The notes: generated from the sequence alone by a model not told the origin. Counted from the first letter of the stretch, positions 10,103 through 36,425 are shown. The stretch is 64,000 bases of DNA from Limisphaerales bacterium (GCA_046290825.1 JBKBTZ010000001.1:29364-93363); one strand, 5' to 3'. Made by a program: numbers and translations.

Positions 10103-10113
10103 GCGGATGCCAA

Positions 10114-20314: not shown

Positions 20315-20357
20315 GGTCGGCGGGCATTTTACCAAGCCTTCACAAAATGTTCGGCGC

Positions 20358-21290: not shown

Positions 21291-21329
21291 AGCAACTGCA
21301 AGAATCATGTCGCCAGTGTCAGCGCCCGT

Positions 21330-21391: not shown

Positions 21392-21449
21392 GCAGCGGGC
21401 ATTCGCCGCGGTGTCTCGACAAGACGGCGCGGGGTGCTAGGCTGTGCGG

Positions 21450-22439
21450 ATGCGAGTCCTGTTGTTCTGCCTGTTTCCGCTGATCGCGCTGACGGTCGCG
21501 GCCCATTCCACGAACGCGGTGGAGTCCGCCGACCGTGCCGCCGGGATCAGCAGTGCCTCGGTGCCTGCCGTGAAGGGCACCAATGATCCCGTCGAAGCGG
21601 AGTTCAAGCGCCTGATGCTGGCGGATGACGCGGCGATGGACGAGGTGGACCAGTGGATCCGGGAGAACGAGAAATTCAAGGAACACGGCGCGGGCACGCC
21701 GGACGAGACGTTGAACGCGCGCATCCAGCGGCGGTTCGAGCCGGTGCGGCGGGGTTATGAGGAGTTCATCCAAAAAAATCCGAATCACGGGCGGGCGCGG
21801 CTGGCGTTCGCGAGTTTTCTCGAGGAGATGGGCGATGAGGCGGCGGCGCTGGAGCAGATGTTGAAGGCGAAGGAGGTCGAGCCGAACAACCCGGCGGTCT
21901 GGAACAATCTGGCGAATTACTACGGGCACCGCAGTCCGGTGACGAACGCCTTCACCCATTACGAGAAGGCCATCGAACTCGATCCCAAAGAGCCGGTGTA
22001 TTACCAGAATTTCGGGACCACGGTGTTCCTGTTCCGCAAGGATGCGCGGGAGCATTACGGCCTGACGGAGCAGCAGGTGTTCGACAAGGCGTTGACGCTC
22101 TACTCGAACGCGGTGGCGCTGGATCCGGAGAATTTCCTGCTGGCGACGGACGTGGCGATGACGTTCTACGGCATCAAACCGCCGCGGACGGACGAGGCAA
22201 TTGCCGCTTGGGAGCGCGCCCGGTCGTTGGCGGCAGACGATTTGCAGCGGGAGGGCGTGGAAATTCATCTGGCGCGCACCAAGCTGCAAGCGGGCCGGCT
22301 GGCCGAGGCGCGGGCGCACCTCGAGGCGGTGAAGCATGAATCCCTGCAAGAGTTGAAGCGGCGGGTGTTGCGGAACGTGGAGGCGCAGGAAAAGCCGGCG
22401 GAGACCTCCCGCCCGCCCGCCGCCGCGCCGCCGGAATAG
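21450..22439 (+). CDS. Secreted TPR-repeat protein
   Basis: ATG at 21450 (MRVLLFCLFPLIALTVAAHS signal peptide). TPR-like repeats follow (AVWNNLANYYGH..., YEKAIELDPKEPVYYQNFG...). Confidence 0.75.
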   Translation: MRVLLFCLFPLIALTVAAHSTNAVESADRAAGISSASVPAVKGTNDPVEAEFKRLMLADDAAMDEVDQWIRENEKFKEHGAGTPDETLNARIQRRFEPVRRGYEEFIQKNPNHGRARLAFASFLEEMGDEAAALEQMLKAKEVEPNNPAVWNNLANYYGHRSPVTNAFTHYEKAIELDPKEPVYYQNFGTTVFLFRKDAREHYGLTEQQVFDKALTLYSNAVALDPENFLLATDVAMTFYGIKPPRTDEAIAAWERARSLAADDLQREGVEIHLARTKLQAGRLAEARAHLEAVKHESLQELKRRVLRNVEAQEKPAETSRPPAAAPPE

Positions 22440-22501
22440 CCACCGCGCACCCAGCATCGTTGTTGCCCCGTCCCGTCCCGTCCCGCTAGTTTTGTCTTCG
22501 C

Positions 22502-24022
22502 ATGGCCGGTTCGGCATCCATCTCGCGCGCGCAGCTCGTTTACGGGCTGTGCCTGCCGCTGGCTGCGTTGATCGGTTTCTTCCTGGCGGACCCGTTGCGG
22601 TTCAGTTCGCTGGCGGTGCTGTGCCTCATTGCGGGCGTGCTGTTGTGGCCGCTGTTTCTCAAGTGGTATCACCCGTTGCTGGTGTTCAGCTTCGGCTCGA
22701 TTTTCATGCTGGGTTTTCTGCCGGGCAATCTGCCGTTATGGTATGCCGTTGCGGCGGCGGCCTTTGGAGCGGTGGTGGTGAATCGTTGCCTCGACGCGCG
22801 GATGCGGCTGGTGCCGCCGGGCGGGGTGGCGTGGGCGCTGCTGGCCATCGCCGGGGTGACGGTGCTGACGATGCTGCTGCGGGGCGGGGCGGGGCTGGGT
22901 TCGCTGGGGAGCACTTCGATGGGCGGCAAAAAATACATTACCATCCTGCTCGCGGTGGCGGCGTATTTTGTGCTGGTGAGCAAGGCGGTGCCGCCCAACC
23001 GGCGGCTGTTATATGTGGGGCTGCTGACCTTGTCCGGAATTACGGGTTTGTTGAGTCACGTGGCCTACTCCACCGGCCAGCACTGGCTGTTCAAAGTGGT
23101 GGATCCCGGCCCGGCATGGGGCCAGGCGGCCATGGAATGGGACGTGCAGGGGCAGGTGCTGTTCCGCAGCACGCCGGTGATGAACGCGGCCAACGCCATC
23201 ATCGGATTCTTGGCGGCGTGGATCGGAGTGCGCGGAATGTTGAACCTGCGCCGGCCGTGGGGCTTTCTGATCGTCCTCGCCTGTCTGGCGGTGGGCACCC
23301 TGGGCGGGTTCCGCATCTTTCTGGTCAGCACCGGGCTGTTCCTGGCGATCTTGTTCGTGATTGAAGGGCTGCACCGGACGCGGTATCTGGCCTTGGTGGT
23401 GTTGCTGGGCCTCGCGGGGCTGGGGGGGGTGGCGACGTCGGCGGAGAAATTGCCGCGTTCCGTGCAACGGGCGGTGAGCTTCCTGCCGGTGCGCGTGGAC
23501 CCGGTGGTGAAACAAGAGGCGCAAGGCTCGGTGCAATGGCGGCTGGAGATGTGGGAGGTGCTGCGCAAGGAGATTCCGGCGTATCTGGTGCTGGGCAAGG
23601 GATACGCAATTGATCCGACCGCCCTGGAGTTTTCGGTTTTTAACGCGCGGCGGGGTTACACCATGCAGGCCGAGTGGGCGGTGCTCACCGGCGAATATCA
23701 CAACGGGCCGTTGAGCGTGCTGATTCCGCTGGGCCTCGGCGGGGCGCTGACCTTTGGCTGGTTTCTGGTGGTTTCGGTCCGGCGTTTATGGGGATTCTGC
23801 CGGAACGGCGAGCCGGGCCTGTTGCAGATCAACCGTGCGCTGCTGGCGATGTTTGTCGCTAAGATCATCATTTTCACGGTGTTTTTCGGGTCGCTGTATT
23901 CCGAGCTGGTGGGCTTTGTCTGCATCATTGGGCTGGCGGAGAGCCTGAACACGCCGCGTGAGGCTCCGGCGGAGGAACCGGCAGTCTGGCCGAACGGCCT
24001 GTGGGAAGGAGGCCGCGCATGA
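22502..24022 (+). CDS. O-antigen ligase/polymerase-like polytopic membrane protein (Wzy_C-like), copy 1
   Basis: At least 10 hydrophobic segments, a periplasmic-loop block QWRLEMWEVL, and the motif GEYHNGPLSVLIPLGLGGAL (HN..L......G..G, as in WaaL/Wzy_C). Confidence 0.7.
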   Translation: MAGSASISRAQLVYGLCLPLAALIGFFLADPLRFSSLAVLCLIAGVLLWPLFLKWYHPLLVFSFGSIFMLGFLPGNLPLWYAVAAAAFGAVVVNRCLDARMRLVPPGGVAWALLAIAGVTVLTMLLRGGAGLGSLGSTSMGGKKYITILLAVAAYFVLVSKAVPPNRRLLYVGLLTLSGITGLLSHVAYSTGQHWLFKVVDPGPAWGQAAMEWDVQGQVLFRSTPVMNAANAIIGFLAAWIGVRGMLNLRRPWGFLIVLACLAVGTLGGFRIFLVSTGLFLAILFVIEGLHRTRYLALVVLLGLAGLGGVATSAEKLPRSVQRAVSFLPVRVDPVVKQEAQGSVQWRLEMWEVLRKEIPAYLVLGKGYAIDPTALEFSVFNARRGYTMQAEWAVLTGEYHNGPLSVLIPLGLGGALTFGWFLVVSVRRLWGFCRNGEPGLLQINRALLAMFVAKIIIFTVFFGSLYSELVGFVCIIGLAESLNTPREAPAEEPAVWPNGLWEGGRA

Positions 24023-25605
24023 GTTCAATGCCGGTCGCCCTGCGGTCGCTGCTGATCTACTTGATCTGCCTGCCGCTGGCGCTGTTTCTTGGTTATCAAC
24101 TCACCAACCCGCTCTCGTATGAGGCGGTGTTCACGGTGGGCATCGTGCTCGGGGTGTTGCTGATTCCCGTGCTGCTGAAGTGGCACCGGCCCATCCTGTT
24201 TTTTTCGATGGGGGCGGCGATGGTGGTGTTCTTCCTGCCGGGCCGGCCCAAGCTGGGGCTGGTGATGGTGGCGGTGAGCCTGTTGATTTCGATTCTTCAA
24301 CGGACCATCCAGCCGAACTTTCGGTTCCTCCGGGTGCCGGAACTGACGTGGCCGCTGATGGCGGTGTTGGCGGTCGTGTTCTACACCATGTTGTTGCAGG
24401 GCGGGTTCGGGCTGTCCTTCTTTGGCGCGCGCACGGCGGGGGGCAGCCGCTACCTGATGCTGATTCTGGGGGTGCTGAGTTTCTTTGCCCTGACGGCGCA
24501 GGCCATTCCGCGGGAGCGGCTGAACACGTATGTGGCCCTGTTTTTCCTGAGCGGCATCACGGCGATGATCGGCGACTTTTTTGCGGTGGTGACGCCGGCG
24601 CTGCGGCCCATTTTCCTCCTGTTCCCGCCCTCGCCCCACGCCTTCGCAGGCGAATTCGACGTCGGCGTGACGCGGTTGTTTGGGGTGACATTGGGCGCGG
24701 CAGCGGTGTTCCGCTACATGCTGGCCCGCTACGGGGTAGGCGGCCTGCTGGTTACTGGCAGCCGGCTGCGGCTGTTGGTGTTCCTGGGGGTCACGGGGCT
24801 GTCGTTGCTGGGCGGCTCCCGGCTTGCTTTGGTGGGCGCCTTGCTGCTGTTTGTGGTGCTTTTCTACCTGGAGGGATGGCACCGGACGAGGCTGGTGGTG
24901 CCCGTAATCGGAGCGGGGGTTCTGCTGGCGGCCGTTACAGTGGCATTTCTGCCGCGCATGCCCTTCACCGTGCAACGCACGCTGGCGTTCCTGCCGTTGC
25001 CCATTGACCCGGCGGCGAAACTCTCGGCGGATGCCTCGTCGGAATGGCGGCTGGAGATGTGGCGGAACCTGCTGCCCGAGGTGCCCCGGCATCTGCTGTT
25101 AGGGCGAGGCTTGGCCGTTTCGGACGCGGACCTGCAGATGCTCACCAACGAAACCCTTTCCGCCCGCACGCCGGACCAGTGGCTTTGGGCGGCCATCACG
25201 GGCGATTTCCACAACGGTCCGCTCTCGGTGGTGCTGACTTTTGGCATCTGGGGGCTGATTGCGTTTGTGTGGCTGCAACTGGCGGGCCTGCGGGTGCTTT
25301 ACCTGAACTACAAGAACGGCGCGCCGGAGTTGAAGGTGCTGAACACCTACCTGTTCGCCCAATACATCGTGCAACTCGTCGTCTTCTGGTTTGTCTTCGG
25401 CTCGATGTATTCCGAAACGATCATCTTCATGTCGCTGGCGGGCTTCGGGGTGGCGGCCAACGGCGGTGTCTGTCGCCAACCCGTTGCCCAGCCAGTGCCC
25501 GCGTCGGTTGCCCGGCCCGCCTTGCCCCGGCCCTTGCGCCCCCGCCCGTTGGGTCGTCCGCCGGTCGGGTTGCCGCTTCCGGCCCGTTCCCCGGTGCGGC
25601 AATAG
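24019..25605 (+). CDS. O-antigen ligase/polymerase-like polytopic membrane protein, copy 2 (tandem paralog)
   Basis: Collinear with copy 1 (EWRLEMWRNLLPEVPRHLLLGRG, GDFHNGPLSVVLTFGIWGLIAF). ATG 24019 overlaps the upstream stop (ATGA). The C-terminal tail is Pro/Arg-rich. Confidence 0.7.
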   Translation: MSSMPVALRSLLIYLICLPLALFLGYQLTNPLSYEAVFTVGIVLGVLLIPVLLKWHRPILFFSMGAAMVVFFLPGRPKLGLVMVAVSLLISILQRTIQPNFRFLRVPELTWPLMAVLAVVFYTMLLQGGFGLSFFGARTAGGSRYLMLILGVLSFFALTAQAIPRERLNTYVALFFLSGITAMIGDFFAVVTPALRPIFLLFPPSPHAFAGEFDVGVTRLFGVTLGAAAVFRYMLARYGVGGLLVTGSRLRLLVFLGVTGLSLLGGSRLALVGALLLFVVLFYLEGWHRTRLVVPVIGAGVLLAAVTVAFLPRMPFTVQRTLAFLPLPIDPAAKLSADASSEWRLEMWRNLLPEVPRHLLLGRGLAVSDADLQMLTNETLSARTPDQWLWAAITGDFHNGPLSVVLTFGIWGLIAFVWLQLAGLRVLYLNYKNGAPELKVLNTYLFAQYIVQLVVFWFVFGSMYSETIIFMSLAGFGVAANGGVCRQPVAQPVPASVARPALPRPLRPRPLGRPPVGLPLPARSPVRQ

Positions 25606-25625
25606 CCCTGCCCGCCGTTACTGGC

Positions 25626-26477
25626 ATGGACTGGACCATCGTCACCCCCAGCCGCAACCAGCTTAAGTGGCTGCGGCTGTGCCGCGCCTCGGTTGCTGAC
25701 CAGGCCGGCGTCACCGTGCAGCATATTGTGCAGGATGCCGGCTCGACGGATGGCACGGTCGAATGGCTGCACCAACAACCCGGCATTGAGGCGCACATCG
25801 AGGCGGATGAGGGCATGTATGACGCGCTGAACCGCGGTTTTGCCCGGGCGACGGGCGATTTCGTGGCCTGGCTGAACTGCGACGAGCAATACCTGCCCGG
25901 CGTGCTCGCGCGCGTAGCCAAGTTTTTCCGGGCGCATGCTGGCGTGGACATGGTTTTTGGCGACATCATCGTGGTGGATGAATGCGGCGAATACCTCTGG
26001 CATCGCAAGGTGCAGGTGCCGCGCCTTTATCACACGCTGACCTGTCATCTTTCCACGCTTTCGTGCGCGATGTTCTTCCGGCGGCGGCTGGTTGAGGCCG
26101 ACAGGTTCCGCTTTGACACGTCCTACCGGATCGTGGGCGACGCGGAATGGATGACGCGGCTGCTGCGAGCCGGGGTGCGGATGGCGGCGCTGGGGGAGTT
26201 CACCTCCGTCTTCACGCAAACCGGACAGAACCTGAGCCGGGACGCGCGGGCGGCGGCAGAACAGGCCCGGCTGGCGGCGACGGCATCGCCGTGGGTGCGG
26301 TTGGCGCGGCCGCTTTGGATTCTGCACCACCGACTGGCCCGCTGGCGGGCGGGAGCCTACCGGCAAACGCCCTTTTCGTTTCAGCTCCACATGGCGGAAC
26401 CGGTGGGGAGCCGGGTGGCGCGACGGGTTGCCGTGCCGCGTTTTCGTCCGGTTGCCGGAAGGCCGGGTTGCCGCTAG
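25626..26477 (+). CDS. Family 2 glycosyltransferase
   Basis: Start at ATG 25626 (MDWTIVTPSRNQLKWLRLCRASV). QDAGSTDGT and WLNCDEQYLPG (DXD-like) are present. The 194-aa upstream extension was rejected. Confidence 0.8.
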   Translation: MDWTIVTPSRNQLKWLRLCRASVADQAGVTVQHIVQDAGSTDGTVEWLHQQPGIEAHIEADEGMYDALNRGFARATGDFVAWLNCDEQYLPGVLARVAKFFRAHAGVDMVFGDIIVVDECGEYLWHRKVQVPRLYHTLTCHLSTLSCAMFFRRRLVEADRFRFDTSYRIVGDAEWMTRLLRAGVRMAALGEFTSVFTQTGQNLSRDARAAAEQARLAATASPWVRLARPLWILHHRLARWRAGAYRQTPFSFQLHMAEPVGSRVARRVAVPRFRPVAGRPGCR

Positions 26478-26608: not shown

Positions 26609-29600
26609 ATGAACCAAAAATTCAAATCCACGGAGGGCGTTCTGCTTATTTGCATCACCGCCCAGCTTCTTTTTCTTTCCTTGGCGGCCGGCCAGAATCT
26701 CTTGCCCAATCCATCGTTTGAAGCAGGTTCGGGGAGTGCTCCCACGGGGTGGGTGTTGTTGGGCAGTGGCTCTTGGGCGTCCAACAACGCTTACGGCGGA
26801 GATCAATCTGTGTTGGTTCGTGGCGTCCAAGGCCAATTTTCCTACTGGGCAAATCACAGCCCCGCCGCGCAGCCGGGCCAAGCCTACTTGTGCCGGATTC
26901 GCGCCCAGCAGAGCAACAACGTTTCCGGCTACATGATCGCCGGGTTTTCATCGGTTTCCTACGATTTCCCGCGTCCTGGCTTCCTCTGGTCAGTATGGCA
27001 TTCGACAACTTTTCCGGCATGGATTCCGTCTGCGGCAGGGCAGCCGTCATTCCGGTTTGGGCTGTTTGATGCGGTGGGAGGTGCGTGGTTTGATGAGGTG
27101 GAAATGTATCCTTTGCGGGTTCATCGCAAACGTGTGGGAAACTACCATTTGGGAGCAGGCGAATTCTTGCATGCGGGCCATTACACGAACCATGTGAAAT
27201 TTGGGCTGCCTGGCGGCAACTATACGCCTTACCTGCATGCCGCCAATACCACGTTCAACAGCTTCAAGTGGTATCTGCAAAATGGCCAGTATGTCGTCTT
27301 TCGGCATGAGCTCCCAGGGACGGCGTTCACTAGTGCGGGAATCAGGTCCTTCCTGCAGAACTACAATCAGATCACCAATCGGAGCCTGCGACTCGAAGCC
27401 AGCACCAATGGGTCAGCTTGGATCCTCGTTGGCGAGCTGGAGGCGGCCGGGACCAATCAGATCGCAGTGCCGCCTGCATTGTTGCCGACGGCGACACTTT
27501 ACCTGCGTTTTACCACTACTAATAACCTGCAGTTCGGCTTCACGGGTTACACTCTGGACGCCAACGTGGAAGACACCAACACCACTGGACAGGGTGAGTC
27601 CTATTACTTGGGAGAGATGGTGTCCGGTTCCAACATCTGGATTTCAGAACTCACCGCCACTGCTGAAGGGCACCGGGCCAGCGTCGCTATCTTGAATACC
27701 AACACGGAACCAGCCGTTTTCACCGTGCGGGCGCGCAGCACATTCTCGCAAACGACCCGGGAGCGCCGAGCCAGCGCCACGGTGAATCCAGGCCAGACGA
27801 ACACCGTATCGGTGATATTTCCCACGACCGGCTTTGGCGACAACGATGCCGTGCTTGTCGTCGAGGACGGCGATGGGACGGTCGTTTTGCAAAGCACGTT
27901 TACATTCAGGGGGAGTATCATTGCGGAAGACGGTTACGGAGAGACGGTGGTGGATGCCCCGGAATGCGCCGTCTGGTGGTGCGACGGAACCCACCGGGTG
28001 GGTGCCAACCGCTTGGCGCCGGGCAAGACCAATGTGGCGGCCAGCATCGTTGCGGCACGCAATGAGTATGAACCGCTACAGATTGTATTCCGCCCCAAAA
28101 CGACATTGAGCAACCTGACCGCCACCCTCACGGATTTTGTTTCCGTTACCAACCCCTCGGCTCGTATCGCTGCGACCAACGTGGTCCTTGAAACCGTTGG
28201 TTATGTGCCAATCAATGAACTGGATCCGCGAGACCTGCTGAGCGTGGTAGGTTTGCACGCGGATCCACTAGAGCCGGTATCGTCGCCACTCACCGCTCCG
28301 GCAGGAACCAACTTGTCATTCTTTGTAACGGTGTATGTCCCGCGGGAGGCTGAAGCGGGCGAATACATGGCAAACTTTGAGGCTCAGCACGCATCCGGCA
28401 ACTTTAGCATTCCCGTTCGGTTGCGCGTTTTGAACTTCACGCTGCCGGGGCACAGCGAACAACGCAACGCGGCGGGCCTCTACGAACAAGGCACCTGGTA
28501 TGGCTTCAACTGGGCCACCCCGGAGCAGCGGGCCCAGACCTGGGAGCTAAACCTGCTTCATTTTGCCAGACACCGCATCAGCCCATACTACCCTCAAAGT
28601 TTTGCCCGGATTCAATACACGTATCATCCGGTTACAGACTCCTTCACCTACGATTTTAGCGCCTTCGACGCGGCGATGGACCGTTACATTGAGGAATACA
28701 ATTTCAACAGCTTCCGCGACCTCAACCCCTTCGCAGCGCTCCCCCCCATTCCCGGGGTCCCTCAATACAACGCACAGAAGACAGCCATCACGCCGGAATA
28801 CCGCCGTCTCTACATCAAGCTGATGCAGCCAATCTTTCAGCATTTTCGGGAGCGTGGTTGGATGGGGATTGCCTATTCACAATGGATTGATGAGCCAACC
28901 ACCAACCAAACCCCGCTGGTGCAGCAGGGCATGGATATGATCCAAGAGGCCGCTCCGGACCAGCCGCGTCTCCTGGCAAGCCTGTATGCTCCGGATCCTG
29001 ACTTGTTTGGCTATATTGACGAATGGGTCCCTAACTGGGACTTCGGCCTGCAAACCCAGCACATTGGACCGTTGCAGGCGGCAGGCGACCGGGTCTGGTA
29101 TTACGTCGCCACCGTGCCCAAGACGCCTTGGCCCAATAATTTTGTGGACCAGCCCGCCATCAATCCCCGCGTCCGGCAATGGTATGCGGAAAAGCAAGGG
29201 TTTGTAGGCGAAGACTACTGGGCGGTAAACTGGTGGGGGGACAACAATCCGTGGCTGGATCCGATGGCACGTGGTGGTAGTGCCTCCGATGGTTATTTCC
29301 GGCTCGGCAACGGGGACGGCATGATGATTTATCCCCCCGTCAAATCCCTTCCCACGAACACGGCCGTCGTCGCCCCGCCTGTAAACTCCATCCGGATGGC
29401 CAACATGCGCGATGGTTTCGAGGACCGGGAGTATTTTGCACATTTGAAGCGACTGATCTCGAACTCCATTCCGATTCTTGGCCCGGACCATCCGTCGGTG
29501 ATAGAAGCCCAAGCCGCTATTCAAGATGCGCTCGCCCCGTTGCCTTGGACGCCCCTAAATCCCTTTGAGGCCTCCACATTGTTTGCGGCGCGCCAACGTG

Positions 29601-30910
29601 TGGCGGAGGCCATCGAGGCCTTGGAAACCGGCGCCCCGCGATTTGCCAAATCCCCGTGGTCGAAAGTGGTAAAGCAGGGAGACGCACAAACCCTGCGCGT
29701 TGAGGCGATCGGCTGGCCCTTGCCGCAAATCCAGTGGCAGCACCAGGGCACCAACTTACCGGGGGCCACCGGCCCGCGGCTCTTCCTCACTAACATCACC
29801 ACCGCCATGGCGGGTGAATACCGCGCCATCGCCTGGAACTCACAGGGCAGCATCACCAGCGCCGTGGGCCGGCTCACCGTGCTCGTCACCAACATGCCGC
29901 CCGTGGTCATCACCCATCCCAAAGACCTCTCCCGCACCAATGGCGCGCGGGCGGTCTTTGGCGCGGGCGTTTCGAGTCTGACGCCCCTCGCCTACCAATG
30001 GCTGCATAACGGCGTCCCGCTTCCCAATGCCACCAACGTCACCGTTGTGCTGACCAACCTCGGCTCCGGGCACGCGGGTTTCTATTCACTCGTCGCCTCG
30101 AACGCGTTTGGGGTGGCCACCAGTTCTCCGGCCCTGTTGTTGGTGGAACCGCCCGGCGGTGCCGTGGCCCCCAGCATCACAATGCAGCCGACCAATCAGG
30201 CGGTCCTCGCGGGTGAAACCGCCGCGTTCGCCGTCACCGCCACCGGCACCACGCCGCTGGCCTACCAATGGTATTTCAACGCGACCAATCCGGTCGGCGG
30301 CAACGTCAATCCGCTGGTGCTGACCAATGTCCAGCCCGGCCAGGCGGGGGATTATCGCGTGGTCGTCGCCAACATTGCGGGCAGCGTGACGAGCGCGGTC
30401 GCCACGCTCTCGGTCGAGGTCGCGGCACCGGTCATCACCGCCGCGCCCACAAATCTCACGGTGGTGCAGGGCCAGTCCGCGCAGTTCACCGTGACCGCCA
30501 CCGGCTCGCTGCCGCTGGCGTATCAATGGTTCTTCAACGAGACCAACCTGCTTGCCGGGGCGACCGCCAGCACGCTTTCGCTCACCAACGTGCAACCGCC
30601 GCAGGTTGGCAGCTACGTCGTGCGCGTGACCAATTCGGTCGGTGCCATCACCAGCCCGCCCGCACTGTTGCTGATTGCCGGGATGCCCAACTACACCAAC
30701 GAGCCGCCCGGGCTGACCGTGGCGTGGCAGGCCCCGGATTTGGTTTTGACGCTCGCGCCCGACAACCGCGCGCGCACCATCCAGGTATCCACGAATCTGG
30801 TGGATTGGGAGGTGTTCACCAACGCCGGGCCGAGCGCTGCGTTTGTCACCGTCCCGGTCGCGGCCACCAATCTGCCGGGCCGGTTCTTCCGCGCCTTCAT
30901 CGTCCCCTGA
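26609..30910 (+). CDS. Giant secreted protein: CBM4_9-like N-terminus + GH123/DUF4091-like core + 4 Ig-like (I-set-like) repeats + C-terminal beta-sandwich-like module (paralog 1)
   Basis: ATG 26609 with signal peptide (LLICITAQLLFLSLAAGQ). NLLPNPSFEAGSGSAPTGW (CBM-like). YSQWIDEP with a D-E pair at 28889-28894. Four roughly 90-aa repeats each carry PL(A)YQW...LTN(V)...G.Y. The tail is STNLVDWEVFTN...RFFRAFIVP*. Confidence 0.7.
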   Translation: MNQKFKSTEGVLLICITAQLLFLSLAAGQNLLPNPSFEAGSGSAPTGWVLLGSGSWASNNAYGGDQSVLVRGVQGQFSYWANHSPAAQPGQAYLCRIRAQQSNNVSGYMIAGFSSVSYDFPRPGFLWSVWHSTTFPAWIPSAAGQPSFRFGLFDAVGGAWFDEVEMYPLRVHRKRVGNYHLGAGEFLHAGHYTNHVKFGLPGGNYTPYLHAANTTFNSFKWYLQNGQYVVFRHELPGTAFTSAGIRSFLQNYNQITNRSLRLEASTNGSAWILVGELEAAGTNQIAVPPALLPTATLYLRFTTTNNLQFGFTGYTLDANVEDTNTTGQGESYYLGEMVSGSNIWISELTATAEGHRASVAILNTNTEPAVFTVRARSTFSQTTRERRASATVNPGQTNTVSVIFPTTGFGDNDAVLVVEDGDGTVVLQSTFTFRGSIIAEDGYGETVVDAPECAVWWCDGTHRVGANRLAPGKTNVAASIVAARNEYEPLQIVFRPKTTLSNLTATLTDFVSVTNPSARIAATNVVLETVGYVPINELDPRDLLSVVGLHADPLEPVSSPLTAPAGTNLSFFVTVYVPREAEAGEYMANFEAQHASGNFSIPVRLRVLNFTLPGHSEQRNAAGLYEQGTWYGFNWATPEQRAQTWELNLLHFARHRISPYYPQSFARIQYTYHPVTDSFTYDFSAFDAAMDRYIEEYNFNSFRDLNPFAALPPIPGVPQYNAQKTAITPEYRRLYIKLMQPIFQHFRERGWMGIAYSQWIDEPTTNQTPLVQQGMDMIQEAAPDQPRLLASLYAPDPDLFGYIDEWVPNWDFGLQTQHIGPLQAAGDRVWYYVATVPKTPWPNNFVDQPAINPRVRQWYAEKQGFVGEDYWAVNWWGDNNPWLDPMARGGSASDGYFRLGNGDGMMIYPPVKSLPTNTAVVAPPVNSIRMANMRDGFEDREYFAHLKRLISNSIPILGPDHPSVIEAQAAIQDALAPLPWTPLNPFEASTLFAARQRVAEAIEALETGAPRFAKSPWSKVVKQGDAQTLRVEAIGWPLPQIQWQHQGTNLPGATGPRLFLTNITTAMAGEYRAIAWNSQGSITSAVGRLTVLVTNMPPVVITHPKDLSRTNGARAVFGAGVSSLTPLAYQWLHNGVPLPNATNVTVVLTNLGSGHAGFYSLVASNAFGVATSSPALLLVEPPGGAVAPSITMQPTNQAVLAGETAAFAVTATGTTPLAYQWYFNATNPVGGNVNPLVLTNVQPGQAGDYRVVVANIAGSVTSAVATLSVEVAAPVITAAPTNLTVVQGQSAQFTVTATGSLPLAYQWFFNETNLLAGATASTLSLTNVQPPQVGSYVVRVTNSVGAITSPPALLLIAGMPNYTNEPPGLTVAWQAPDLVLTLAPDNRARTIQVSTNLVDWEVFTNAGPSAAFVTVPVAATNLPGRFFRAFIVP

Positions 30911-30924
30911 ATCTGAAGTCACCC

Positions 30925-33900
30925 ATGCGGCCCACGAAACACACGAAACGACCCGAAATGGCTTGGGCCGGTAACGCCGCAGAGTTGTGCTCCCGAGGGG
31001 CGAACGTTGTTCCTCGAATCAGTTTCGCGCCCCGCACCAGGTGGGTTGCCCGAAGTTGGCAGGCCGTTCTCGCTTTTCTTGCGGTCGCCGGGTGGACGGC
31101 CTCTGTGTCCGCTCAAAATCTCGCGCCGAACCCGTCGTTCGAGGCGGGTGTCACCACTCCCGAGCCGTGGACGCCCGTGGGGGCGGGGGCGTGGGAAAAC
31201 TTTGGCCGGACGGGCAACCGCTGCGTTTCCATCCTGGGCGAGGCGGGGGTGACCCGCGGTTGGTCGGGGCCGCTTACCCTCGACGCGCAGCGCGGCTATT
31301 GGGTCCGGTTTTGGGCCAGCGCGTCCAACGCGCTCAGTGGTTATCTTTACGGCGGCCTGTCCACCGCAAGCCGGGATTTCCGCCGCGCCAGCCGCCGGTG
31401 GTCGGACTTCGCCTACGCCGCGTGGGTGCCGGCTGGCGAACCGCCGCAATTCCGAATGATGTCCTCGGGCACCATCGGACCGATTTATTTCGACGACGCG
31501 GAGGTGCTGCCTTTGGTGGAAGTCCACCGCCCCGTCGGGGATTACGAACTGGGCGAGGGGGAAAGCCTGCGCGCAGGCACCTATCGTTTCCAAGCTCCCT
31601 TCGCCTCGTTCGGCGGCAACTGCGCCCGGCCCTTGCACGCCGCCAACACCGCGTTCAATACCTACCGCTGGTATTTCAATCCCGGCTCCGTAGTCATCTA
31701 CCGCCACGAACTCGCCGGGCAGCCCTTCTCGAACGCGGTCGTGGGCTTCCAGCTACAGAATTACAACAACCTTAACAACACGACCCTCCTCCTCGAGGCG
31801 GGCACGGACGGGACCAACTGGCTCCCTGTCGGCTCCGTCGCGCAATACATCGCCGGCAATTTTCCCGTGCCTGCCGAACTGCTGCCCGCGCCGGTCGTTT
31901 TCATCCGCCTGCGCAGCACCAACGCCAGCCAGTTCTCGCTCGCCGGCTACTCGTTCACGGCGCAGGTGCCCGACACGGTCACCGACGCCACCGGCACCAC
32001 TCATTACTTTGGCCGGCTGCATCCCGGCGACGACGTGCGCGTGTTGGACGTGAGTCTCACCGCCACCGGACGGGTGGCCACGCTGGCCGTGCCCAATTTC
32101 ACCGCCAGTCCGCGCCCGTTCACCTGCGAGGCGGTCACGACACTGCTGGCCGTGGAACGCGCTCGCGTCGTTAGCATGACCGTGCCGCCCTTGGCCACCA
32201 ACCTCGTCCAGTTGCCGCTGCCCACCGCCGGTGCAGGGGACAACACCACCGTCCTGACCGTCCGCGACGCCGCCACCAACATTGTGTTCCAGCAGATTCA
32301 CCGCTTCACCGTGCAATTCCTCGATGATGACAGCTTTGGCGAGCGTTTGCCGTCGCCAGCGGAGTGCCCGGTCTGGACCTGCTCCGGCAATTACAAGGTG
32401 GGACGAAATCGCGGCCTGCCCGTGGGCACCACCAATGCCGTCCGGCTCGCTTTGGCCCGGAACGAATACGAACCCTTCCAACTGATCCTGCGCCCGCCCG
32501 CGACGCTCAGCAACGTCTGGGTGAGCGTCGGCAACTTCGTCTCCGTGACCAATCCCGCGGTCAGCTTCAGTGCCACCAACGTCACGATTGACCGCGTGGA
32601 CTACGTGAACGTCAGTGTCCCGGATCCCGGGAATTTCGCTGCCGCGTTGGGCGACCATCCCGACCCGCTGCCGCCGCTGACCGCGCCGTTCACCGCGCCG
32701 GGCGGCACGAACAGCCCGCTGTGGTTCACCGTGTATGCGCCGAAGGATGTGCCCGCCGGCGAATACGCCGCCACCCTCACGGTGCAGCACCACGACGGCA
32801 GCTTCACCGTGCCGCTGGTAGTCCGGGTGTTTGACTTCGCCCTCACCGACGTCAGCCACACACGCACGGCCTACGGGCTGATGCCGCTGGAGGACTGGCA
32901 CGGCCTGCAATGGGCCACGCCGGAGCAGGTCCGGCAGGTTTGGGACTTGTATCTCCGCAACATGGCGCGGCACCGGGCCAGCCCGTATTACCCGCAGCTT
33001 TATTCGGCCGTGCAATACACCTACCAGCCGGGCACGGACAGCTTCACCCACAACTTTGGCCCCTTCAGTGCCGCGATGGACGAATACCTCGAGGAATACC
33101 ACTTCAACAGCTTTCGCGACCTCAGCTTCTATTCCGGTTTCCCGCAGATTCCGGGTGTGCCCACATTCACCCCGGACGGGCTGACGATTCATCCCGAATA
33201 CTGGCGGCTCTATCCGAAACTGATGCAGCCGGTGTTTCAGCATTTCCGCGAGCGCGGTTGGATGGGCACCGCCTTTGCCCAGTGGATTGACGAGCCGGCC
33301 GCCGCCCAGATGCCGCTCGTTCGCCTGGGCATGGAACTGATTCAGAACACCGCGCCCGACCACGACACTCTGCTGGCCACCTTCTTCGGCCCCGTCGCCG
33401 AACTGTTCGATTTAGTCACGCTGTGGGTGCCGCACTGGGACTTCGATATGTATTTCGAGCACGTGGCACCTCGCCGGGCCGCCGGGGACGAGGTGTGGTA
33501 TTACGTTTGCACCATCCCGAAGGATCCCTGGCCCAACAGCTTCATTGACCAGGCCGGCGTCGCGCCCCGCCTGCGACAGTGGTATGCCGAGCTGTGGCAG
33601 TTGGATGGCGAAGATTATTGGGGGGCCAACCACTACATCGGCATCACCAACCCGTGGGTCCAGACCATGAGCCGGTTCGGCAACGCGACCAACGGCTACT
33701 ACAACCTCGGCCACGGCGACGGCTACGTGCTGTATCCGCCGGTCCGCGAGAAACCCACCAACACCGTCATCGTCGCCGGCCCCGTCAACTCCGTCCGCTT
33801 CGAGACCGTGCGCGATGGTTACGAGGACCGCGAATATTTCTGGCTGTTGCAACGGGCGCTGGTCGCCCGGGAGCCGGTCCTCGGCACGAATCATCCCGCC

Positions 33901-35310
33901 GTCGTCGAGGCCCGCGCCGCCTATGCCGAGGCCATGGGCCTGCTTCCGTGGCCGCCCATCCTGCCCCATGAACCGCACCGGCTGGCCGCCTCCCGGCTCC
34001 GCGTGGCCGAGGCCATCGAGGCGCTCGATGACGGCGCACCCTTTATTGCCAAGGACCCGCTGAACAAGGTCTGTCGGCCGGGCGAAAATCAGACGTTGCG
34101 CGTCGAGGCGGTCGGCTGGCCGTTGCCCTCGCTGCAATGGCAGCGCAACGGCACCAATCTCCCCGGCGCCACGGAACGGCGGCTCGTGCTGACCAGCCTC
34201 ACCGCCGCGCACACCGGCGACTACCGCGTCATCGCCAGCAACGCGCACGGCAGCGTCACCAGCGCCGTGGGCCGGCTAACCGTGCTCCTCACCAACGACC
34301 TCCCGCTGTTCGTCGCGCAGCCGAAATCGCTCCATCGGGGTTACGGCACGCGCGCCGTCTTCGGCGGCGGCGTGTCGAGCCTCACGCCGCTGACCTATCA
34401 ATGGCTGAAGAACGGCGCGCTGCTGTCCGGCGAGACCAACACCACGCTTGTGTTGACCAACCTCAACGACACGCACGCCGGGACCTACGCGCTCATCGCC
34501 AGCAACGCCAACGGCAGCCTGACCAGCGCGCCTGCCATCCTGACCGTTGCGGCTCCGCCCGGCTCCGTGCCGCCGCAGGTAATCGCGCCGCCCGTCAGCC
34601 AGACCGTCAACGCCGGCTCGAACGTGACGTTCACCGTCAGCGCGAGTGGCACGACCCCGCTGAACTACCAATGGCGTTTCCACGGCACGAATCTGCCGGG
34701 CGCTACCGCCACCAATCTCAGCTTCACGAACGTCCAGCCCTTCCGCGCCGGCCCTTACGACGTGGTCATTGGCAACGTCGCCGGCTGGGCCACCAGCGCC
34801 GTGGCCACGCTCACCGTGCAGACGTTCGCGCCCTATCTGACCCTGTCCCCGTCGAACCTGACCCTCGCCCAAAACCAGAACGCGCAATTCACCGCCGCGG
34901 CGGGCGGTTCGCCGCCGCTGGCGTTCCAGTGGTTTTTCAACGGCACCAACGCCCTGCCCGGCGCGACCGCCCCGAGCTTGTTGCTGACCAACGTCCAGCC
35001 CGCGCAAACGGGGAATTACGCCCTGCGCGTCACCAACCTTTACGGCGCGATCACCAGCACGCCCGCGCTGCTGCAACTCTCGGGCATGCCCGGCTACACC
35101 ACCGAGCCGCCCGGCATTACGGCGCTGCGGCAGGGCGGTTTCCAGCTTGGGCTGCTGCCGGACAACCGCGCCCGCACCGTGCTGGTTTCCACCAATCTTC
35201 AAGACTGGACCTGGTTCACCAACGTCCCGCCCTCGGCGGCGCAGGAGAATTTGCCCGTGCCCCTCACCAACGCCCCGCGCCGATTCTTCCGTGTCTTCGT
35301 CACGCCATGA
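30925..35310 (+). CDS. Giant secreted protein, tandem paralog 2 with the same architecture
   Basis: Collinear with paralog 1 throughout: QNLAPNPSFEAG, FAQWIDEP (D-E at 33289-33294), four Ig-like repeats, and the tail STNLQDWTWFTN...RFFRVFVTP*. Start at ATG 30925 (alternative 30958). Confidence 0.7.
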   Translation: MRPTKHTKRPEMAWAGNAAELCSRGANVVPRISFAPRTRWVARSWQAVLAFLAVAGWTASVSAQNLAPNPSFEAGVTTPEPWTPVGAGAWENFGRTGNRCVSILGEAGVTRGWSGPLTLDAQRGYWVRFWASASNALSGYLYGGLSTASRDFRRASRRWSDFAYAAWVPAGEPPQFRMMSSGTIGPIYFDDAEVLPLVEVHRPVGDYELGEGESLRAGTYRFQAPFASFGGNCARPLHAANTAFNTYRWYFNPGSVVIYRHELAGQPFSNAVVGFQLQNYNNLNNTTLLLEAGTDGTNWLPVGSVAQYIAGNFPVPAELLPAPVVFIRLRSTNASQFSLAGYSFTAQVPDTVTDATGTTHYFGRLHPGDDVRVLDVSLTATGRVATLAVPNFTASPRPFTCEAVTTLLAVERARVVSMTVPPLATNLVQLPLPTAGAGDNTTVLTVRDAATNIVFQQIHRFTVQFLDDDSFGERLPSPAECPVWTCSGNYKVGRNRGLPVGTTNAVRLALARNEYEPFQLILRPPATLSNVWVSVGNFVSVTNPAVSFSATNVTIDRVDYVNVSVPDPGNFAAALGDHPDPLPPLTAPFTAPGGTNSPLWFTVYAPKDVPAGEYAATLTVQHHDGSFTVPLVVRVFDFALTDVSHTRTAYGLMPLEDWHGLQWATPEQVRQVWDLYLRNMARHRASPYYPQLYSAVQYTYQPGTDSFTHNFGPFSAAMDEYLEEYHFNSFRDLSFYSGFPQIPGVPTFTPDGLTIHPEYWRLYPKLMQPVFQHFRERGWMGTAFAQWIDEPAAAQMPLVRLGMELIQNTAPDHDTLLATFFGPVAELFDLVTLWVPHWDFDMYFEHVAPRRAAGDEVWYYVCTIPKDPWPNSFIDQAGVAPRLRQWYAELWQLDGEDYWGANHYIGITNPWVQTMSRFGNATNGYYNLGHGDGYVLYPPVREKPTNTVIVAGPVNSVRFETVRDGYEDREYFWLLQRALVAREPVLGTNHPAVVEARAAYAEAMGLLPWPPILPHEPHRLAASRLRVAEAIEALDDGAPFIAKDPLNKVCRPGENQTLRVEAVGWPLPSLQWQRNGTNLPGATERRLVLTSLTAAHTGDYRVIASNAHGSVTSAVGRLTVLLTNDLPLFVAQPKSLHRGYGTRAVFGGGVSSLTPLTYQWLKNGALLSGETNTTLVLTNLNDTHAGTYALIASNANGSLTSAPAILTVAAPPGSVPPQVIAPPVSQTVNAGSNVTFTVSASGTTPLNYQWRFHGTNLPGATATNLSFTNVQPFRAGPYDVVIGNVAGWATSAVATLTVQTFAPYLTLSPSNLTLAQNQNAQFTAAAGGSPPLAFQWFFNGTNALPGATAPSLLLTNVQPAQTGNYALRVTNLYGAITSTPALLQLSGMPGYTTEPPGITALRQGGFQLGLLPDNRARTVLVSTNLQDWTWFTNVPPSAAQENLPVPLTNAPRRFFRVFVTP

Positions 35311-36425
35311 CCACGAAACTCCGCCGCTGGCTGGCCGGCCTGGCCCTCGTCGGGCTGGTCGCGCACGGCACGCGGAGCGGGGCGCAGGACTTCCTCACCT
35401 GCGGCTGGGACGAGGTGCGGCAGATGCGGCTGGACGGCACCAACCTCGTCACGCTCTGGAGCTGGAACGCGACGAACAGCGACCTGCCCGCCGCATTTCG
35501 CGCGCGGTTCACCACCACCTCCGAAGCCAGGCCGCTCCCCGGCGGCGCGGTGCTCGTCACCTCGTCTGGCGGCGACTCGCTGGACGGCGGGGTGGCGTTG
35601 ATCCGGCCCGGAACCAGCCATGTTTCCTTTTACGCCCGGGGACCGAACGCGCACTCGGCGGAGTTGCTGCCCGGCCACCGCATCGCCGCCGCCTTCTCGT
35701 ATCATCCCGACGGCAACCGCGTGGCCCTGTTCGACCTGGCGCAACCGGACGTGGAATTGTTCAGCACACCGTTGTGGGCGGCGCACGGGCTGGTTTGGGA
35801 TGAAGCCCGACAACGCCTCTGGGCGCTGGCGGATTCCTTCCTCCAGGCCTATGCGTTGACCAACTGGAACACGACCCCGCAGTTGGTGGCGACGGACTGG
35901 ATCGGGCTGCCCTCCGGCGGCGGGCATGACCTGGCGGCGGTGCCGGACAGCCCGGAGATGATCGTCACCACCGACACGCACGTCTGGCTGTTCCACCGCG
36001 ATACGCGCGCCTTCCGCAAACATCCGCTACTGGGCGACACACCCGCGGTGAAGAGCGTCAGCGTCGCGCCGGATTCCGGGCGGACCTTGTTTGTGCAGGC
36101 CGACGGCCCGTGGTGGTCGGAATGGCTGCGGTTCCTGAATCCGCCGTTGGCGGCGCGTTTTCCCGGTGATCATTTCTACAAGGCGCGCTGGCTGGCCGTT
36201 TCGCGCCCGGCGCTGGCCATCCGCCGGACTCCATCCGCCGGGTTGACCATCTCCTGGCCGGCCAGATGGGCCGAATACCAAATAGAAGCCGCGCCCGGAT
36301 TGACCGCTACCAACTGGTCGGTGCCGCCCGAGCCGGTGTGGAATGACGGCACCAATTGCATCCTGTTCCTCGAACCACCATTTTCGCAGGAGCGCTGGTT
36401 CCGGCTGCGTTCCACGCAGCCTTGA
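35307..36425 (+). CDS. Secreted hypothetical protein, translationally coupled to paralog 2
   Basis: ATG 35307 overlaps the paralog-2 stop (ATGA at 35307-35310). Signal peptide MTTKLRRWLAGLALVGLVAHGTRSGAQ. The repetitive strand-like pattern suggests a beta-propeller or beta-rich fold. The tail ...NWSV...RWFRLRSTQP* resembles the shared C-terminal module. Confidence 0.55.
   Translation: MTTKLRRWLAGLALVGLVAHGTRSGAQDFLTCGWDEVRQMRLDGTNLVTLWSWNATNSDLPAAFRARFTTTSEARPLPGGAVLVTSSGGDSLDGGVALIRPGTSHVSFYARGPNAHSAELLPGHRIAAAFSYHPDGNRVALFDLAQPDVELFSTPLWAAHGLVWDEARQRLWALADSFLQAYALTNWNTTPQLVATDWIGLPSGGGHDLAAVPDSPEMIVTTDTHVWLFHRDTRAFRKHPLLGDTPAVKSVSVAPDSGRTLFVQADGPWWSEWLRFLNPPLAARFPGDHFYKARWLAVSRPALAIRRTPSAGLTISWPARWAEYQIEAAPGLTATNWSVPPEPVWNDGTNCILFLEPPFSQERWFRLRSTQP

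What the first reader, a model, noticed from the sequence alone, without database searches (positions are those of the whole stretch)
26609..36425. Tandem giant secreted paralogs (CBM-like + GH123/DUF4091-like + 4 Ig repeats) with a translationally coupled partner
Two adjacent genes of about 1430-1460 aa are collinear from signal peptide to stop.
- N-terminal NL(L/A)PNPSFEAG...GW, which is CBM4_9-like.
- A central region with a W-I-D-E-P block, with D-E pairs at 28889-28894 and 33289-33294. GH123 beta-N-acetylgalactosaminidases use an adjacent Asp-Glu pair; this statement is from memory.
- Four Ig-like repeats sharing PL(A/T/N)YQW...LTN...G.Y...N..G.
- A shared terminal module.
A 372-aa secreted beta-rich protein starts on the stop codon of paralog 2 (ATGA). 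The block lies directly after the glycan-synthesis cluster. It could be a glycan-remodelling or foraging machine displayed on the cell surface. I am not aware of the GH123-like-plus-Ig-array architecture with this dedicated partner being characterised.
Basis: partly seen in the sequence, partly recalled or inferred. Interest (0 to 1): 0.6.

Follow-up and report, generated by a model that had tools for sequence, protein, structure and literature searches.

The report
Tandem GH123-like surface glycosidases, Verrucomicrobia
Two neighbouring giant secreted enzymes are uncharacterised relatives of known beta-N-acetylgalactosaminidases, each with an extra sugar-binding head and an immunoglobulin-like stalk, and they sit at the end of a cell-surface sugar-polymer synthesis cluster, so they most likely trim the cell's own polymer rather than being a new kind of machine.

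Summary
P1 (26609-30910, 1433 aa) and P2 (30925-35310, 1461 aa) are collinear paralogs with 50% identity. A 372-aa gene (35307-36425) starts on P2's stop codon (ATGA).

The interpretation largely holds.
- Both paralogs hit Pfam GH123_cat (E 7e-18).
- The P2 model matches GH123/DUF4091 beta-GalNAcase crystal structures (8K2J, TM 0.80).
- The Asp-Glu pair is invariant in 28 of 28 homologs.
- Each paralog has four I-set Ig domains.
- The N-terminal domain is CBM_4_9-like only by transitive homology.

The core family (a clade-specific 440-aa N-module plus the GH123 core) occurs in at least 541 places in species genomes from many phyla. There its neighbours are often sulfatases and oxidoreductases.

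The clade with the Ig array was seen only in Verrucomicrobiota. It lies beside glycan-synthesis genes in 12 of 17 loci, against 9 of 56 for the rest.

The partner is a DUF6528 six-bladed propeller. A subclade of it recurs next to GH123-Ig genes in at least 5 loci, but most GH loci lack it, and none lies in the 690 nt sequenced downstream in the nearest ortholog locus.

Best reading: retaining beta-HexNAc-ases that process the cluster's own polysaccharide. This is a new variant of a known kind, of moderate interest.

The parts
26609..30910 (+). P1, paralog 1 (1433 aa): signal peptide, N-module, GH123-like core, 4 Ig domains, C-terminal tail module
   Evidence: ORF and start. Pfam GH123_cat E 7e-18 and four Ig_3 stretches. 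Identical to public gene call P0012.
26693..27103 (+). P1 N1 domain (res 29-165), begins QNLLPNPSFEAG; CBM_4_9-like jelly roll by transitive homology
   Evidence: No PF02018 hit on the window protein itself. The homolog P0176 aligns here, and its residues 25-137 hit CBM_4_9 at E 1.4e-14. The P2 model gives a weak Foldseek hit to tandem CBM22, 4xup.
27104..27928 (+). P1 N2 and N3 beta domains (res 166-440); N3 is weakly Ig/PapD-like
   Evidence: All-beta in the model of the P2 equivalent. Weak hits to HYDIN_VesB_CFA65-like_Ig and PapD-like, E about 0.002-0.02. The whole N-module is found only at the N-terminus of this GH123-like clade: 357 clusters among 1.84 billion representatives.
27929..29623 (+). 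P1 GH123-type N-terminal beta-sandwich plus (beta/alpha)8 catalytic barrel and helical end (res 441-1005)
   Evidence: phmmer against PDB: 8K2J at E 8e-24, then 8K2F and BvGH123 5L7R/5L7V. Pfam Glyco_hydro_123_N_2 (weak) and GH123_cat.
28889..28894 (+). P1 catalytic Asp761-Glu762 (W-I-D-E-P)
   Evidence: Coordinates confirmed. Aligned to the DE of NgaDssm 8K2J. Invariant in 28 of 28 homologs.
29624..30679 (+). P1 array of four I-set Ig domains (res 1006-1357)
   Evidence: Pfam Ig_3 E 5e-37 with 4 stretches, and I-set E 4e-29. GC3 steps up from about 0.68 to about 0.84 exactly at this boundary.
30680..30907 (+). P1 C-terminal ~76-aa module ending GRFFRAFIVP
   Evidence: Alignments. Always at the extreme C-terminus in homologs. 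No Pfam model.
30925..35310 (+). P2, paralog 2 (1461 aa as called; the start may lie up to ~100 nt downstream), same architecture as P1
   Evidence: Public gene call P0001 is identical. The AlphaFold model of residues 60-1030 has pLDDT 89.8.
33289..33294 (+). P2 catalytic Asp789-Glu790
34027..35082 (+). P2 array of four Ig domains (res 1035-1386)
   Evidence: Pfam Ig_3 E 5e-37 with 4 stretches. Domain mapping.
35083..35307 (+). P2 C-terminal module ending RRFFRVFVTP
35307..36425 (+). P3 (372 aa): signal peptide, DUF6528 six-bladed beta-propeller (res ~27-296), C-terminal beta-sandwich ending ERWFRLRSTQP; its start overlaps the P2 stop (ATGA)
   Evidence: PF20138 E 4e-17. AlphaFold pLDDT 92.5. 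Foldseek finds only generic propellers. Family invariants are W51 H116 S117 H160 W164 D165 H207 K249 Y291 R294 W295.
6857..26477 (.). Upstream surface-glycan synthesis cluster: epimerase/dehydratase, methyltransferases, three GT2, FAD oxidoreductase, Wzt, Wzm, PQQ_2 propeller, GT4, DUF6492, TPR protein, Wzy_C protein
   Evidence: Pfam. The block from about 21.4 to 26.5 kb (an unnamed protein, Wzy_C, GT2) in front of the GH genes is syntenic in L094 at 81% DNA identity. The upstream gene set (PQQ_2 propeller, DUF6492, an unnamed protein, Wzy_C, GT2) also recurs next to the GH gene in L001 and L010.

Best explanation
P1 and P2 are Sec-exported retaining beta-N-acetylhexosaminidases of the GH123/DUF4091 superfamily, most likely specific for beta-GalNAc.

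Catalysis is expected to be substrate-assisted. The Asp of the adjacent Asp-Glu pair (D761/E762 in P1, D789/E790 in P2) orients the substrate's 2-acetamido group so that it attacks C1 and forms an oxazolinium intermediate. The Glu acts as the general acid/base.

The catalytic core is preceded by a clade-specific three-domain beta module whose first domain is CBM_4_9-like, probably for binding the polymer. It is followed by a stalk of four Ig domains and a short C-terminal beta module with an RFFR tail, probably for holding or sorting the enzyme at the cell envelope.

This Ig-bearing clade, seen here only in Verrucomicrobiota, is encoded inside or at the edge of surface-polysaccharide synthesis clusters. 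The enzymes therefore most likely cut the cell's own beta-HexNAc-containing polymer, for trimming, chain-length control, release or remodelling. The two paralogs would have diverged specificities.

The DUF6528 propeller is a facultative accessory. It probably acts on or binds the same polymer.

Shown: fold, family, conserved residues, architecture, gene contexts. Inferred: activity, substrate, location, role.
For: Enzyme identity
- PF13320 scores above its cutoff.
- NgaDssm 8K2J matches at E 8e-24, with DE aligned to DE.
- The model has pLDDT 89.8, and its top 22 PDB matches are all GH123-superfamily enzymes, TM up to 0.80.
- The residues I mapped to the nine superfamily-invariant positions of PMC11087588 are conserved: DE in 28 of 28 homologs, and the other seven in 22 to 28 of 28.

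Context
- The window has GT2, Wzy_C, DUF6492, GT4 and Wzm/Wzt immediately upstream.
- Glycan-synthesis genes of differing composition flank the Ig-bearing homologs in L001, L003, L004, L006, L007, L009, L010, L011, L018, L038 and L094.
- That makes 12 of 17 Ig-clade loci, against 9 of 56 loci of the Ig-less family (Fisher p = 5e-5).
- Catabolic-type neighbours (sulfatase, GFO_IDH_MocA, GHL10) occur in 23 of 56 Ig-less loci but in only 1 of 17 Ig-clade loci.

Literature
- PMC11087588 had already suggested, from STRING contexts, that some DUF4091 enzymes relate to O-antigen, capsule or exopolysaccharide.

Partner
- The DUF6528 subclade with the C-terminal module lies next to GH123-Ig genes in at least 5 independent loci, in varying orientation.
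Against: - No activity, substrate or localisation data exist.
- The sugar composition of the cluster's product is unknown. NCBIfam gave no equivalog for any cluster enzyme, and nothing points specifically to GalNAc.
- The labelled protein set used for the context count came mostly from Ig-clade loci, which biases detection toward that clade.
- Several of the 12 positive loci are orthologous regions (window, L094, L001, L010), so they are not independent.
- The wider family has catabolic neighbours, so a degradative role for foreign glycans is ancestral and may persist here.
- Four or five Ig-clade loci show no synthesis genes nearby: L008, L041, L090 and L100, while L098 has only a distant GT2.
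Confidence: 0.5

Rival explanations
1. They are foraging enzymes. Surface-displayed beta-GalNAc-ases release sugars or oligosaccharides from external glycans such as sulfated GalNAc polymers or the exopolysaccharides of other organisms. Their position next to the synthesis cluster is incidental.
For: The Ig-less core family, at least 541 genomic matches across many phyla, is often next to sulfatases (8 loci), GFO_IDH_MocA oxidoreductases (8) and GHL10 (5). A CBM-like head, secretion and tandem diversification are typical of degradative enzymes. One DUF6528 relative sits next to a GH39 gene.
Against: In the window and in most Ig-clade loci there are no sulfatases, transporters or sugar-catabolic genes beside the genes. 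Glycosyltransferases, Wzy_C proteins and nucleotide-sugar enzymes are there instead. The contrast with the Ig-less family is significant.
Confidence: 0.3
2. They are mainly structural or adhesive surface proteins. The GH123-like domain serves as a lectin rather than an enzyme, and the Ig array forms an envelope-associated stalk or lattice.
For: The proteins are very large, with four Ig domains and a terminal tail motif shared with other secreted proteins of the window. The best PDB sequence hits of the Ig array are phage tail Ig-like decoration proteins.
Against: The catalytic DE pair, and the residues mapped to the substrate-contacting Tyr and Trp and to the structural invariants, are kept in essentially all 28 homologs. 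That is not expected for a purely binding domain.
Confidence: 0.07
3. The pair is not a functional duo. P1 is a mosaic or decaying copy, and only P2 carries the original function.
For: The enzyme part of P1 has GC3 of 0.58-0.70, against 0.79-0.88 for its own Ig array and about 0.8-0.9 for P2, with a sharp step at the domain junction. P1 is 46% identical to P2 in the enzyme part but 60% in the Ig part. It sits on a long branch. It evolves faster than P2: 78% against 86% identity to the L094 orthologs. It has Phe at the position I mapped to a structural Trp, which 27 of 28 homologs keep.
Against: The P1 reading frame is intact over 1433 codons. It keeps the DE pair and the other mapped residues. 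It also has a full-length ortholog in the same position in another organism. This points to divergence under selection, not decay.
Confidence: 0.1

Closest known systems
NgaDssm (PDB 8K2J/8K2K), Group 3 oligosaccharide/monosaccharide-releasing beta-N-acetylgalactosaminidase of the DUF4091 superfamily (Sumida et al. 2024, PMC11087588)
   Same: It is the best sequence match (E 8e-24) and the best structure match (Foldseek E 6e-30, TM 0.80). It has the same beta-sandwich plus (beta/alpha)8 barrel and an aligned DE motif. The residues I mapped to the superfamily invariants are kept.
   Different: Identity is only about 22%. NgaDssm is a ~530-aa two-domain enzyme. The window proteins add a ~440-aa N-terminal three-domain module, four Ig domains and a C-terminal tail module. 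NgaDssm came from a deep-sea metagenome and has no link to a synthesis cluster.
GH123 sensu stricto: NgaP (Paenibacillus sp. TS12), CpNga123 (5FQE), BvGH123 (5L7R)
   Same: The fold and the Asp-Glu substrate-assisted mechanism are expected to be shared. Foldseek gives E 1e-22 to 2e-25, and both proteins hit Pfam GH123_cat.
   Different: These are more distant: 12-17% identity and TM 0.61-0.72. They are exo-acting enzymes for glycosphingolipid or mucin glycans in Bacillota and Bacteroidota, with no Ig array and no N-module.
NgaCa (8K2F/8K2G), Group 1 oligosaccharide-releasing (endo-like) beta-GalNAc-ase
   Same: TM 0.80. The authors suggested that oligosaccharide-releasing enzymes may degrade long repeating-unit exopolysaccharides, which fits the role proposed here.
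   Different: 20% identity, small size, Bacillota origin. NgaCa's own context was read as lipoprotein-related.
Glycanases encoded in polysaccharide-synthesis operons (named from my own knowledge, not tested here): ExoK/ExsH of Sinorhizobium succinoglycan, PslG, BcsZ, PelA, PgaB
   Same: This is a functional analogy only. In each case a hydrolase is encoded with the synthesis genes and cuts the cell's own polymer, to control chain length or release it.
   Different: They belong to unrelated glycoside hydrolase families and are not homologous. Most are small periplasmic enzymes without Ig stalks.
Pfam DUF6528 (PF20138)
   Same: P3 is a clear member: E 4e-17, with homologs up to 57% identical.
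   Different: The family has no known function and no literature. P3 belongs to a subclade with an extra ~75-aa C-terminal module, and only that subclade is linked to GH123-Ig genes.

Membership tests
GH123/DUF4091 beta-N-acetylgalactosaminidase superfamily | Significant match to Pfam PF13320 (GH123_cat, formerly DUF4091) above the gathering score | tested here: met
   P1 scores 65.5 bits and P2 65.2 bits against a cutoff of 23.1.
GH123/DUF4091 beta-N-acetylgalactosaminidase superfamily | N-terminal beta-sandwich followed by a (beta/alpha)8 barrel | tested here: met
   The AlphaFold model has pLDDT 89.8. Its top 22 Foldseek PDB hits are all members of the superfamily, with TM up to 0.80.
GH123/DUF4091 beta-N-acetylgalactosaminidase superfamily | Adjacent catalytic Asp-Glu at the conserved position | tested here: met
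   W-I-D-E-P aligns to l-a-D-E-P of 8K2J. D and E are invariant in 28 of 28 homologs.
GH123/DUF4091 beta-N-acetylgalactosaminidase superfamily | The other seven superfamily-invariant residues (NgaLy D95, W115, Y392, G427, W431, Y466, R478; PMC11087588) | tested here: met
   P2 has 7 of 7. P1 has 6 of 7, with Phe at the W115 equivalent. The equivalence to NgaLy numbering is my own mapping through the 8K2J and 8K2F alignments, not a direct alignment to NgaLy.
GH123/DUF4091 beta-N-acetylgalactosaminidase superfamily | Hydrolysis of beta-GalNAc linkages, inhibited by GalNAc-thiazoline | not testable with these tools
   This needs an enzyme assay.
CAZy GH123 proper, or one of Groups 1-4 of Sumida et al. 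| Placement inside one of the five described clades | not tested
   No dbCAN models and none of the paper's 734-sequence set were available. The closest is Group 3, at 22% identity. The clade-specific N-module suggests a separate group.
CBM_4_9 (PF02018) carbohydrate-binding module | Match to PF02018 at the N-terminal domain | tested here: inconclusive
   The window proteins give no hit even at E up to 10. The homolog P0176 hits PF02018 at residues 25-137, E 1.4e-14, and that region aligns to the window N-module. There is also a weak Foldseek hit to tandem CBM22, 4xup.
Immunoglobulin I-set / Ig_3 domains | Four tandem matches above threshold | tested here: met
   Ig_3 E 5e-37 with 4 stretches in each protein.
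DUF6528 (PF20138) | Match above the gathering score, with a beta-propeller fold | tested here: met
   62.5 bits against a cutoff of 23.5. The model is a six-bladed propeller, pLDDT 92.5.
PEP-CTERM sorting signal | PF07589 match: a C-terminal PEP motif, a transmembrane helix and a basic tail | tested here: not met
   P1, P2 and P3 give no PF07589 hit. Their tails are beta modules ending in RFFR..P. A true PEP-CTERM protein exists elsewhere in the window, at 39844-40626.
Synthesis-cluster-encoded self-polymer glycanases (functional class) | Encoded within or adjacent to the polysaccharide synthesis genes across relatives | tested here: met
   12 of 17 Ig-clade loci, against 9 of 56 Ig-less loci, p = 5e-5. 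The caveats are a biased query set and some orthologous loci.
Synthesis-cluster-encoded self-polymer glycanases (functional class) | Cleaves the polymer made by its own cluster | not testable with these tools
   This needs the purified polymer and enzyme.

The most novel reading that the evidence does not exclude
The three genes form a previously undescribed Verrucomicrobial surface-glycan editing module. Cluster-encoded endo-acting beta-HexNAc-ases are held at the envelope by an Ig stalk and by a new C-terminal sorting or anchoring tag (a beta module ending R-[FWY]-[FY]-R..P), which many secreted proteins of the lineage share. They work together with DUF6528, which would then be a new family of polysaccharide-active propeller enzymes using a His-rich central site.
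Probability: 0.15. Interest if true: 0.6.

Novelty: new variant of a known kind. Interest (0 to 1): 0.35.

Why it matters
The GH123/DUF4091 superfamily was widened only in 2024, and its biological roles are still unclear. This locus defines an uncharacterised clade. It has a private 440-aa N-terminal module and at least 541 genomic matches across many phyla.

Within that clade, the Ig-bearing branch, seen only in Verrucomicrobiota, has moved from catabolic neighbourhoods into polysaccharide-synthesis clusters. If the enzymes do cut the cell's own polymer, that would be concrete support for the suggested link between oligosaccharide-releasing beta-GalNAc-ases and exopolysaccharide or O-antigen turnover. 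It would also be a handle on Verrucomicrobial envelope glycans, which are barely studied.

Two by-products may matter more than the enzymes themselves:
- a first functional context for DUF6528;
- a recurrent C-terminal tail that could be an unrecognised sorting signal.

Tried and rejected
- NCBIfam gave no hit for P1, P2 or P3. It gave no above-cutoff equivalog for any cluster enzyme, so the sugar made by the cluster could not be inferred.
- Pfam at E up to 10 gave nothing for the three C-terminal modules or for the P2 N-module.
- I tested whether the C-terminal module of P3 is homologous to that of P1 and P2. A joint HMM finds all of them, but that test is circular. Independent cross-searches were weak (best E 5e-4; hhalign 43% over the last 23 columns only). 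I therefore claim only a shared tail motif.
- DUF6528 as an obligate partner is rejected. It appears in 1 of 88 other GH-family loci fetched from the GH side, and none lies in the 690 nt sequenced downstream in L094.
- A lipoprotein reading of the conserved Cys32 in DUF6528 is rejected. There is no lipobox, and the residue lies in the first beta strand.
- The promoter and terminator scan was uninformative, with fewer sites than in shuffled sequence.
- There are no tRNA genes or Rfam families in the window.
- Literature searches for DUF6528 and for FYRL-type tails found nothing relevant.
- The word-indexed protein search returned only 44 hits and so understated the family size. The genome scan and the exhaustive HMMER search corrected this.


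Full report
**Observation.** The region holds three co-directional genes on the + strand.
- P1 is 26609-30910 (1433 aa).
- P2 is 30925-35310 (1461 aa as called).
- P3 is 35307-36425 (372 aa). Its ATG overlaps the P2 stop as ATGA.

P1 and P2 align end to end at 50% identity over 1425 residues, E = 0. Public gene calls with the same lengths exist for P1 and P2 (P0012, P0001). The P2 start is not certain, because its close ortholog aligns only from P2 residue 35.

**What the paralogs are.** Pfam places both in GH123_cat (PF13320, formerly DUF4091) at E 7e-18 and 8.5e-18. There is a weak match to the GH123 N-terminal sandwich, and each protein has four Ig_3/I-set domains. NCBIfam has no model for them.

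Against solved structures, the best sequence relative is 8K2J (E 8e-24). W-I-D-E-P aligns to its l-a-D-E-P. According to PMC11087588, 8K2J is NgaDssm, a Group 3 beta-N-acetylgalactosaminidase that releases oligosaccharides and monosaccharides. That paper also states that the DE motif sits at the same position in all five groups of the superfamily, and that these enzymes use substrate-assisted catalysis.

An AlphaFold model of P2 residues 60-1030, built on 28 homologs, has pLDDT 89.8. Its 22 best PDB matches are all GH123-superfamily enzymes. TM reaches 0.80 to NgaDssm and NgaCa, and 0.61-0.72 to BvGH123 and CpNga123.

The paper lists nine superfamily-invariant residues. At the positions I mapped to them, the DE pair is present in 28 of 28 homologs and the rest in 22-28 of 28. 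P2 has all nine. P1 has Phe at the position I mapped to the structural Trp115.

**The accessory parts.** The first 440 residues after the leader form three beta domains.
- An exhaustive HMMER search found this module in only 357 clusters among 1.84 billion representatives.
- In almost every hit it starts directly after the leader, at residue ~20-40. A few proteins carry two or three copies.
- The host proteins are mostly 1000-1200 aa.

It is therefore a hallmark of this clade, not a promiscuous module. The window proteins do not hit CBM_4_9. The homolog P0176 does, at the equivalent first domain (E 1.4e-14), and it aligns to the window module. There is also a weak structural hit to tandem CBM22. 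'CBM4_9-like' is thus supported only by transitive homology.

The last ~76 residues form a beta module ending RFFR(A/V)F..P. It is found at the extreme C-terminus of all Ig-bearing relatives and has no Pfam model.

**Family and distribution.** The word-indexed search found only 44 relatives. A scan of species genomes found at least 541 matches. Most are ~1050-aa proteins made of the N-module plus the GH123 core. They occur in Verrucomicrobiota, Planctomycetota, Armatimonadota, Gemmatimonadota, Latescibacterota, Hydrogenedentota and other phyla.

The Ig array and tail module were seen only in Verrucomicrobiota loci. Tandem copies recur in the window, L003, L004, L006 (three copies), L038 and L094.

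**Context.** In the window, the genes follow a ~20-kb glycan-synthesis cluster. It encodes an epimerase, three GT2, a GT4, two methyltransferases, Wzm/Wzt, DUF6492 and a Wzy_C protein. Relatives show several patterns:
- L094 carries the same unnamed-protein / Wzy_C / GT2 -> GH -> GH order, at 75-83% DNA identity.
- L001 and L010 share the upstream gene set.
- More distant Ig-bearing homologs sit beside different synthesis genes: Rml enzymes with GT2 and GT1; GT9 with a methyltransferase and MBOAT; GT2 with an epimerase and PMT_2; or three GT4 with Methyltransf_21.

In total, 12 of 17 Ig-clade loci have synthesis-type neighbours, against 9 of 56 Ig-less loci (p = 5e-5). Catabolic-type neighbours (sulfatase, GFO_IDH_MocA, GHL10) occur in 23 of 56 Ig-less loci but in only 1 of 17 Ig-clade loci.

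There are caveats. The labelled query set came mainly from Ig-clade loci, and some of the loci are orthologous. PMC11087588 had already speculated, from STRING contexts, that some DUF4091 enzymes relate to O-antigen, capsule or exopolysaccharide.

From the GH side, DUF6528 appears in only 1 of 88 other loci. None lies in the 690 nt sequenced after the P2 ortholog in L094.

From the DUF6528 side the link is stronger. The subclade with the C-terminal module lies next to GH123-Ig genes in the window, L003 (opposite strand), L090/L091 (same strand, 165-nt gap), L098 (divergent) and L100. L099 and L101 are probable further cases. L092 and L093 are not. The bulk of DUF6528 proteins, about 300 aa, show no such link. 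The association is therefore real and recurrent, but facultative, and it does not depend on translational coupling.

**Mechanism proposed.**
- Shown: GH123-superfamily fold and residues, the architecture, and the neighbourhoods.
- Inferred from homology: retaining, substrate-assisted cleavage after a beta-HexNAc, most likely GalNAc.
- Inferred from context: the substrate is the polymer made by the adjacent cluster.
- Inferred from architecture: the CBM-like head binds the polymer, and the Ig stalk and tail hold the enzyme at the envelope.

The main rival is foraging on foreign glycans, which fits the wider family. Smaller rivals are a non-catalytic adhesin, and a decaying or mosaic P1.

**Paralog history.** P2 groups with L003a, L004b and P0004. 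P1 sits on a long branch. P1 has its own ortholog, P0165, at 78% identity, while P2 is 86% identical to its L094 ortholog.

P1 is mosaic. Its enzyme part has GC3 of 0.58-0.70 and is 46% identical to P2. Its Ig array and tail have GC3 of 0.79-0.88 and are 60% identical to P2. The step falls at the domain junction near 29600. This points either to replacement of the enzyme head or to strongly accelerated divergence. The frame and the catalytic residues are intact.

**Verdict.** It is an uncharacterised architectural and contextual variant of a known enzyme superfamily, not a new kind of system. Interest is moderate.

Noticed in passing
window 30680-30907, 35083-35307, 36195-36422, 40654-41823, 42093-43892; also L098 9300-12566 (-): A tail motif R-[FWY]-[FY]-x-[LVAF]..P/Q lies within the last 14 residues of exactly 5 of 302 six-frame ORFs of at least 100 aa. 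All five look like real secreted proteins: P1, P2, P3, a 389-aa protein with no Pfam hit, and a 599-aa PQQ_2 propeller. It also occurs on a Metallophos-LamG protein in L098. No Pfam or NCBIfam model and no literature were found. It may be an unrecognised sorting or anchoring tag in this lineage.
   Followed up: partly
window 26609-30910, step near 29600: P1 is mosaic in composition and phylogeny. GC3 is 0.58-0.70 across the enzyme part, then jumps to 0.79-0.88 exactly at the first Ig domain. Identity to P2 is 46% in the enzyme part and 60% in the Ig array and tail. A milder version of the GC3 pattern is seen in the L094 ortholog.
   Followed up: partly
window 41814-44703: A low-GC stretch (0.53 against about 0.65) holds a small 86-aa ORF on the minus strand that looks like a helix-turn-helix regulator (not run against Pfam), the PQQ_2 propeller with the RFY tail, and an N_methyl/T2SSG pseudopilin-like gene. 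It may be horizontally acquired.
   Followed up: no
window 14194-14607 (-): A gene for a 23S rRNA intervening-sequence protein (PF05635) sits between the Wzt and Wzm transporter genes of the glycan cluster.
   Followed up: no
window 29624-30679 and 34027-35082: The best PDB sequence matches of the Ig arrays are phage tail Ig-like proteins (9ncf_S at E 2e-32, 9c2d_S at E 1e-25), ahead of titin and other animal I-set proteins.
   Followed up: no
P0182 (2066 aa), P0013 (1656 aa): Some family members carry two or three tandem copies of the ~400-aa N-terminal module in front of the GH123 core.
   Followed up: no
L012-L089 (Ig-less family loci): The Ig-less core family is recurrently next to sulfatases (8 loci), GFO_IDH_MocA oxidoreductases (8), GHL10 (5) and neutral-ceramidase-like proteins (5). 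This suggests a role in degrading sulfated or GalNAc-containing glycans in Planctomycetota and allied phyla.
   Followed up: partly
window 39067-40626: A DUF1559/N-methyl (pseudopilin-like) protein and a PEP-CTERM protein lie a few kb downstream. This is consistent with a Verrucomicrobiota or Planctomycetota origin for the window. The best genome match of P2 is a Pedosphaera MAG, at 47% identity.
   Followed up: no
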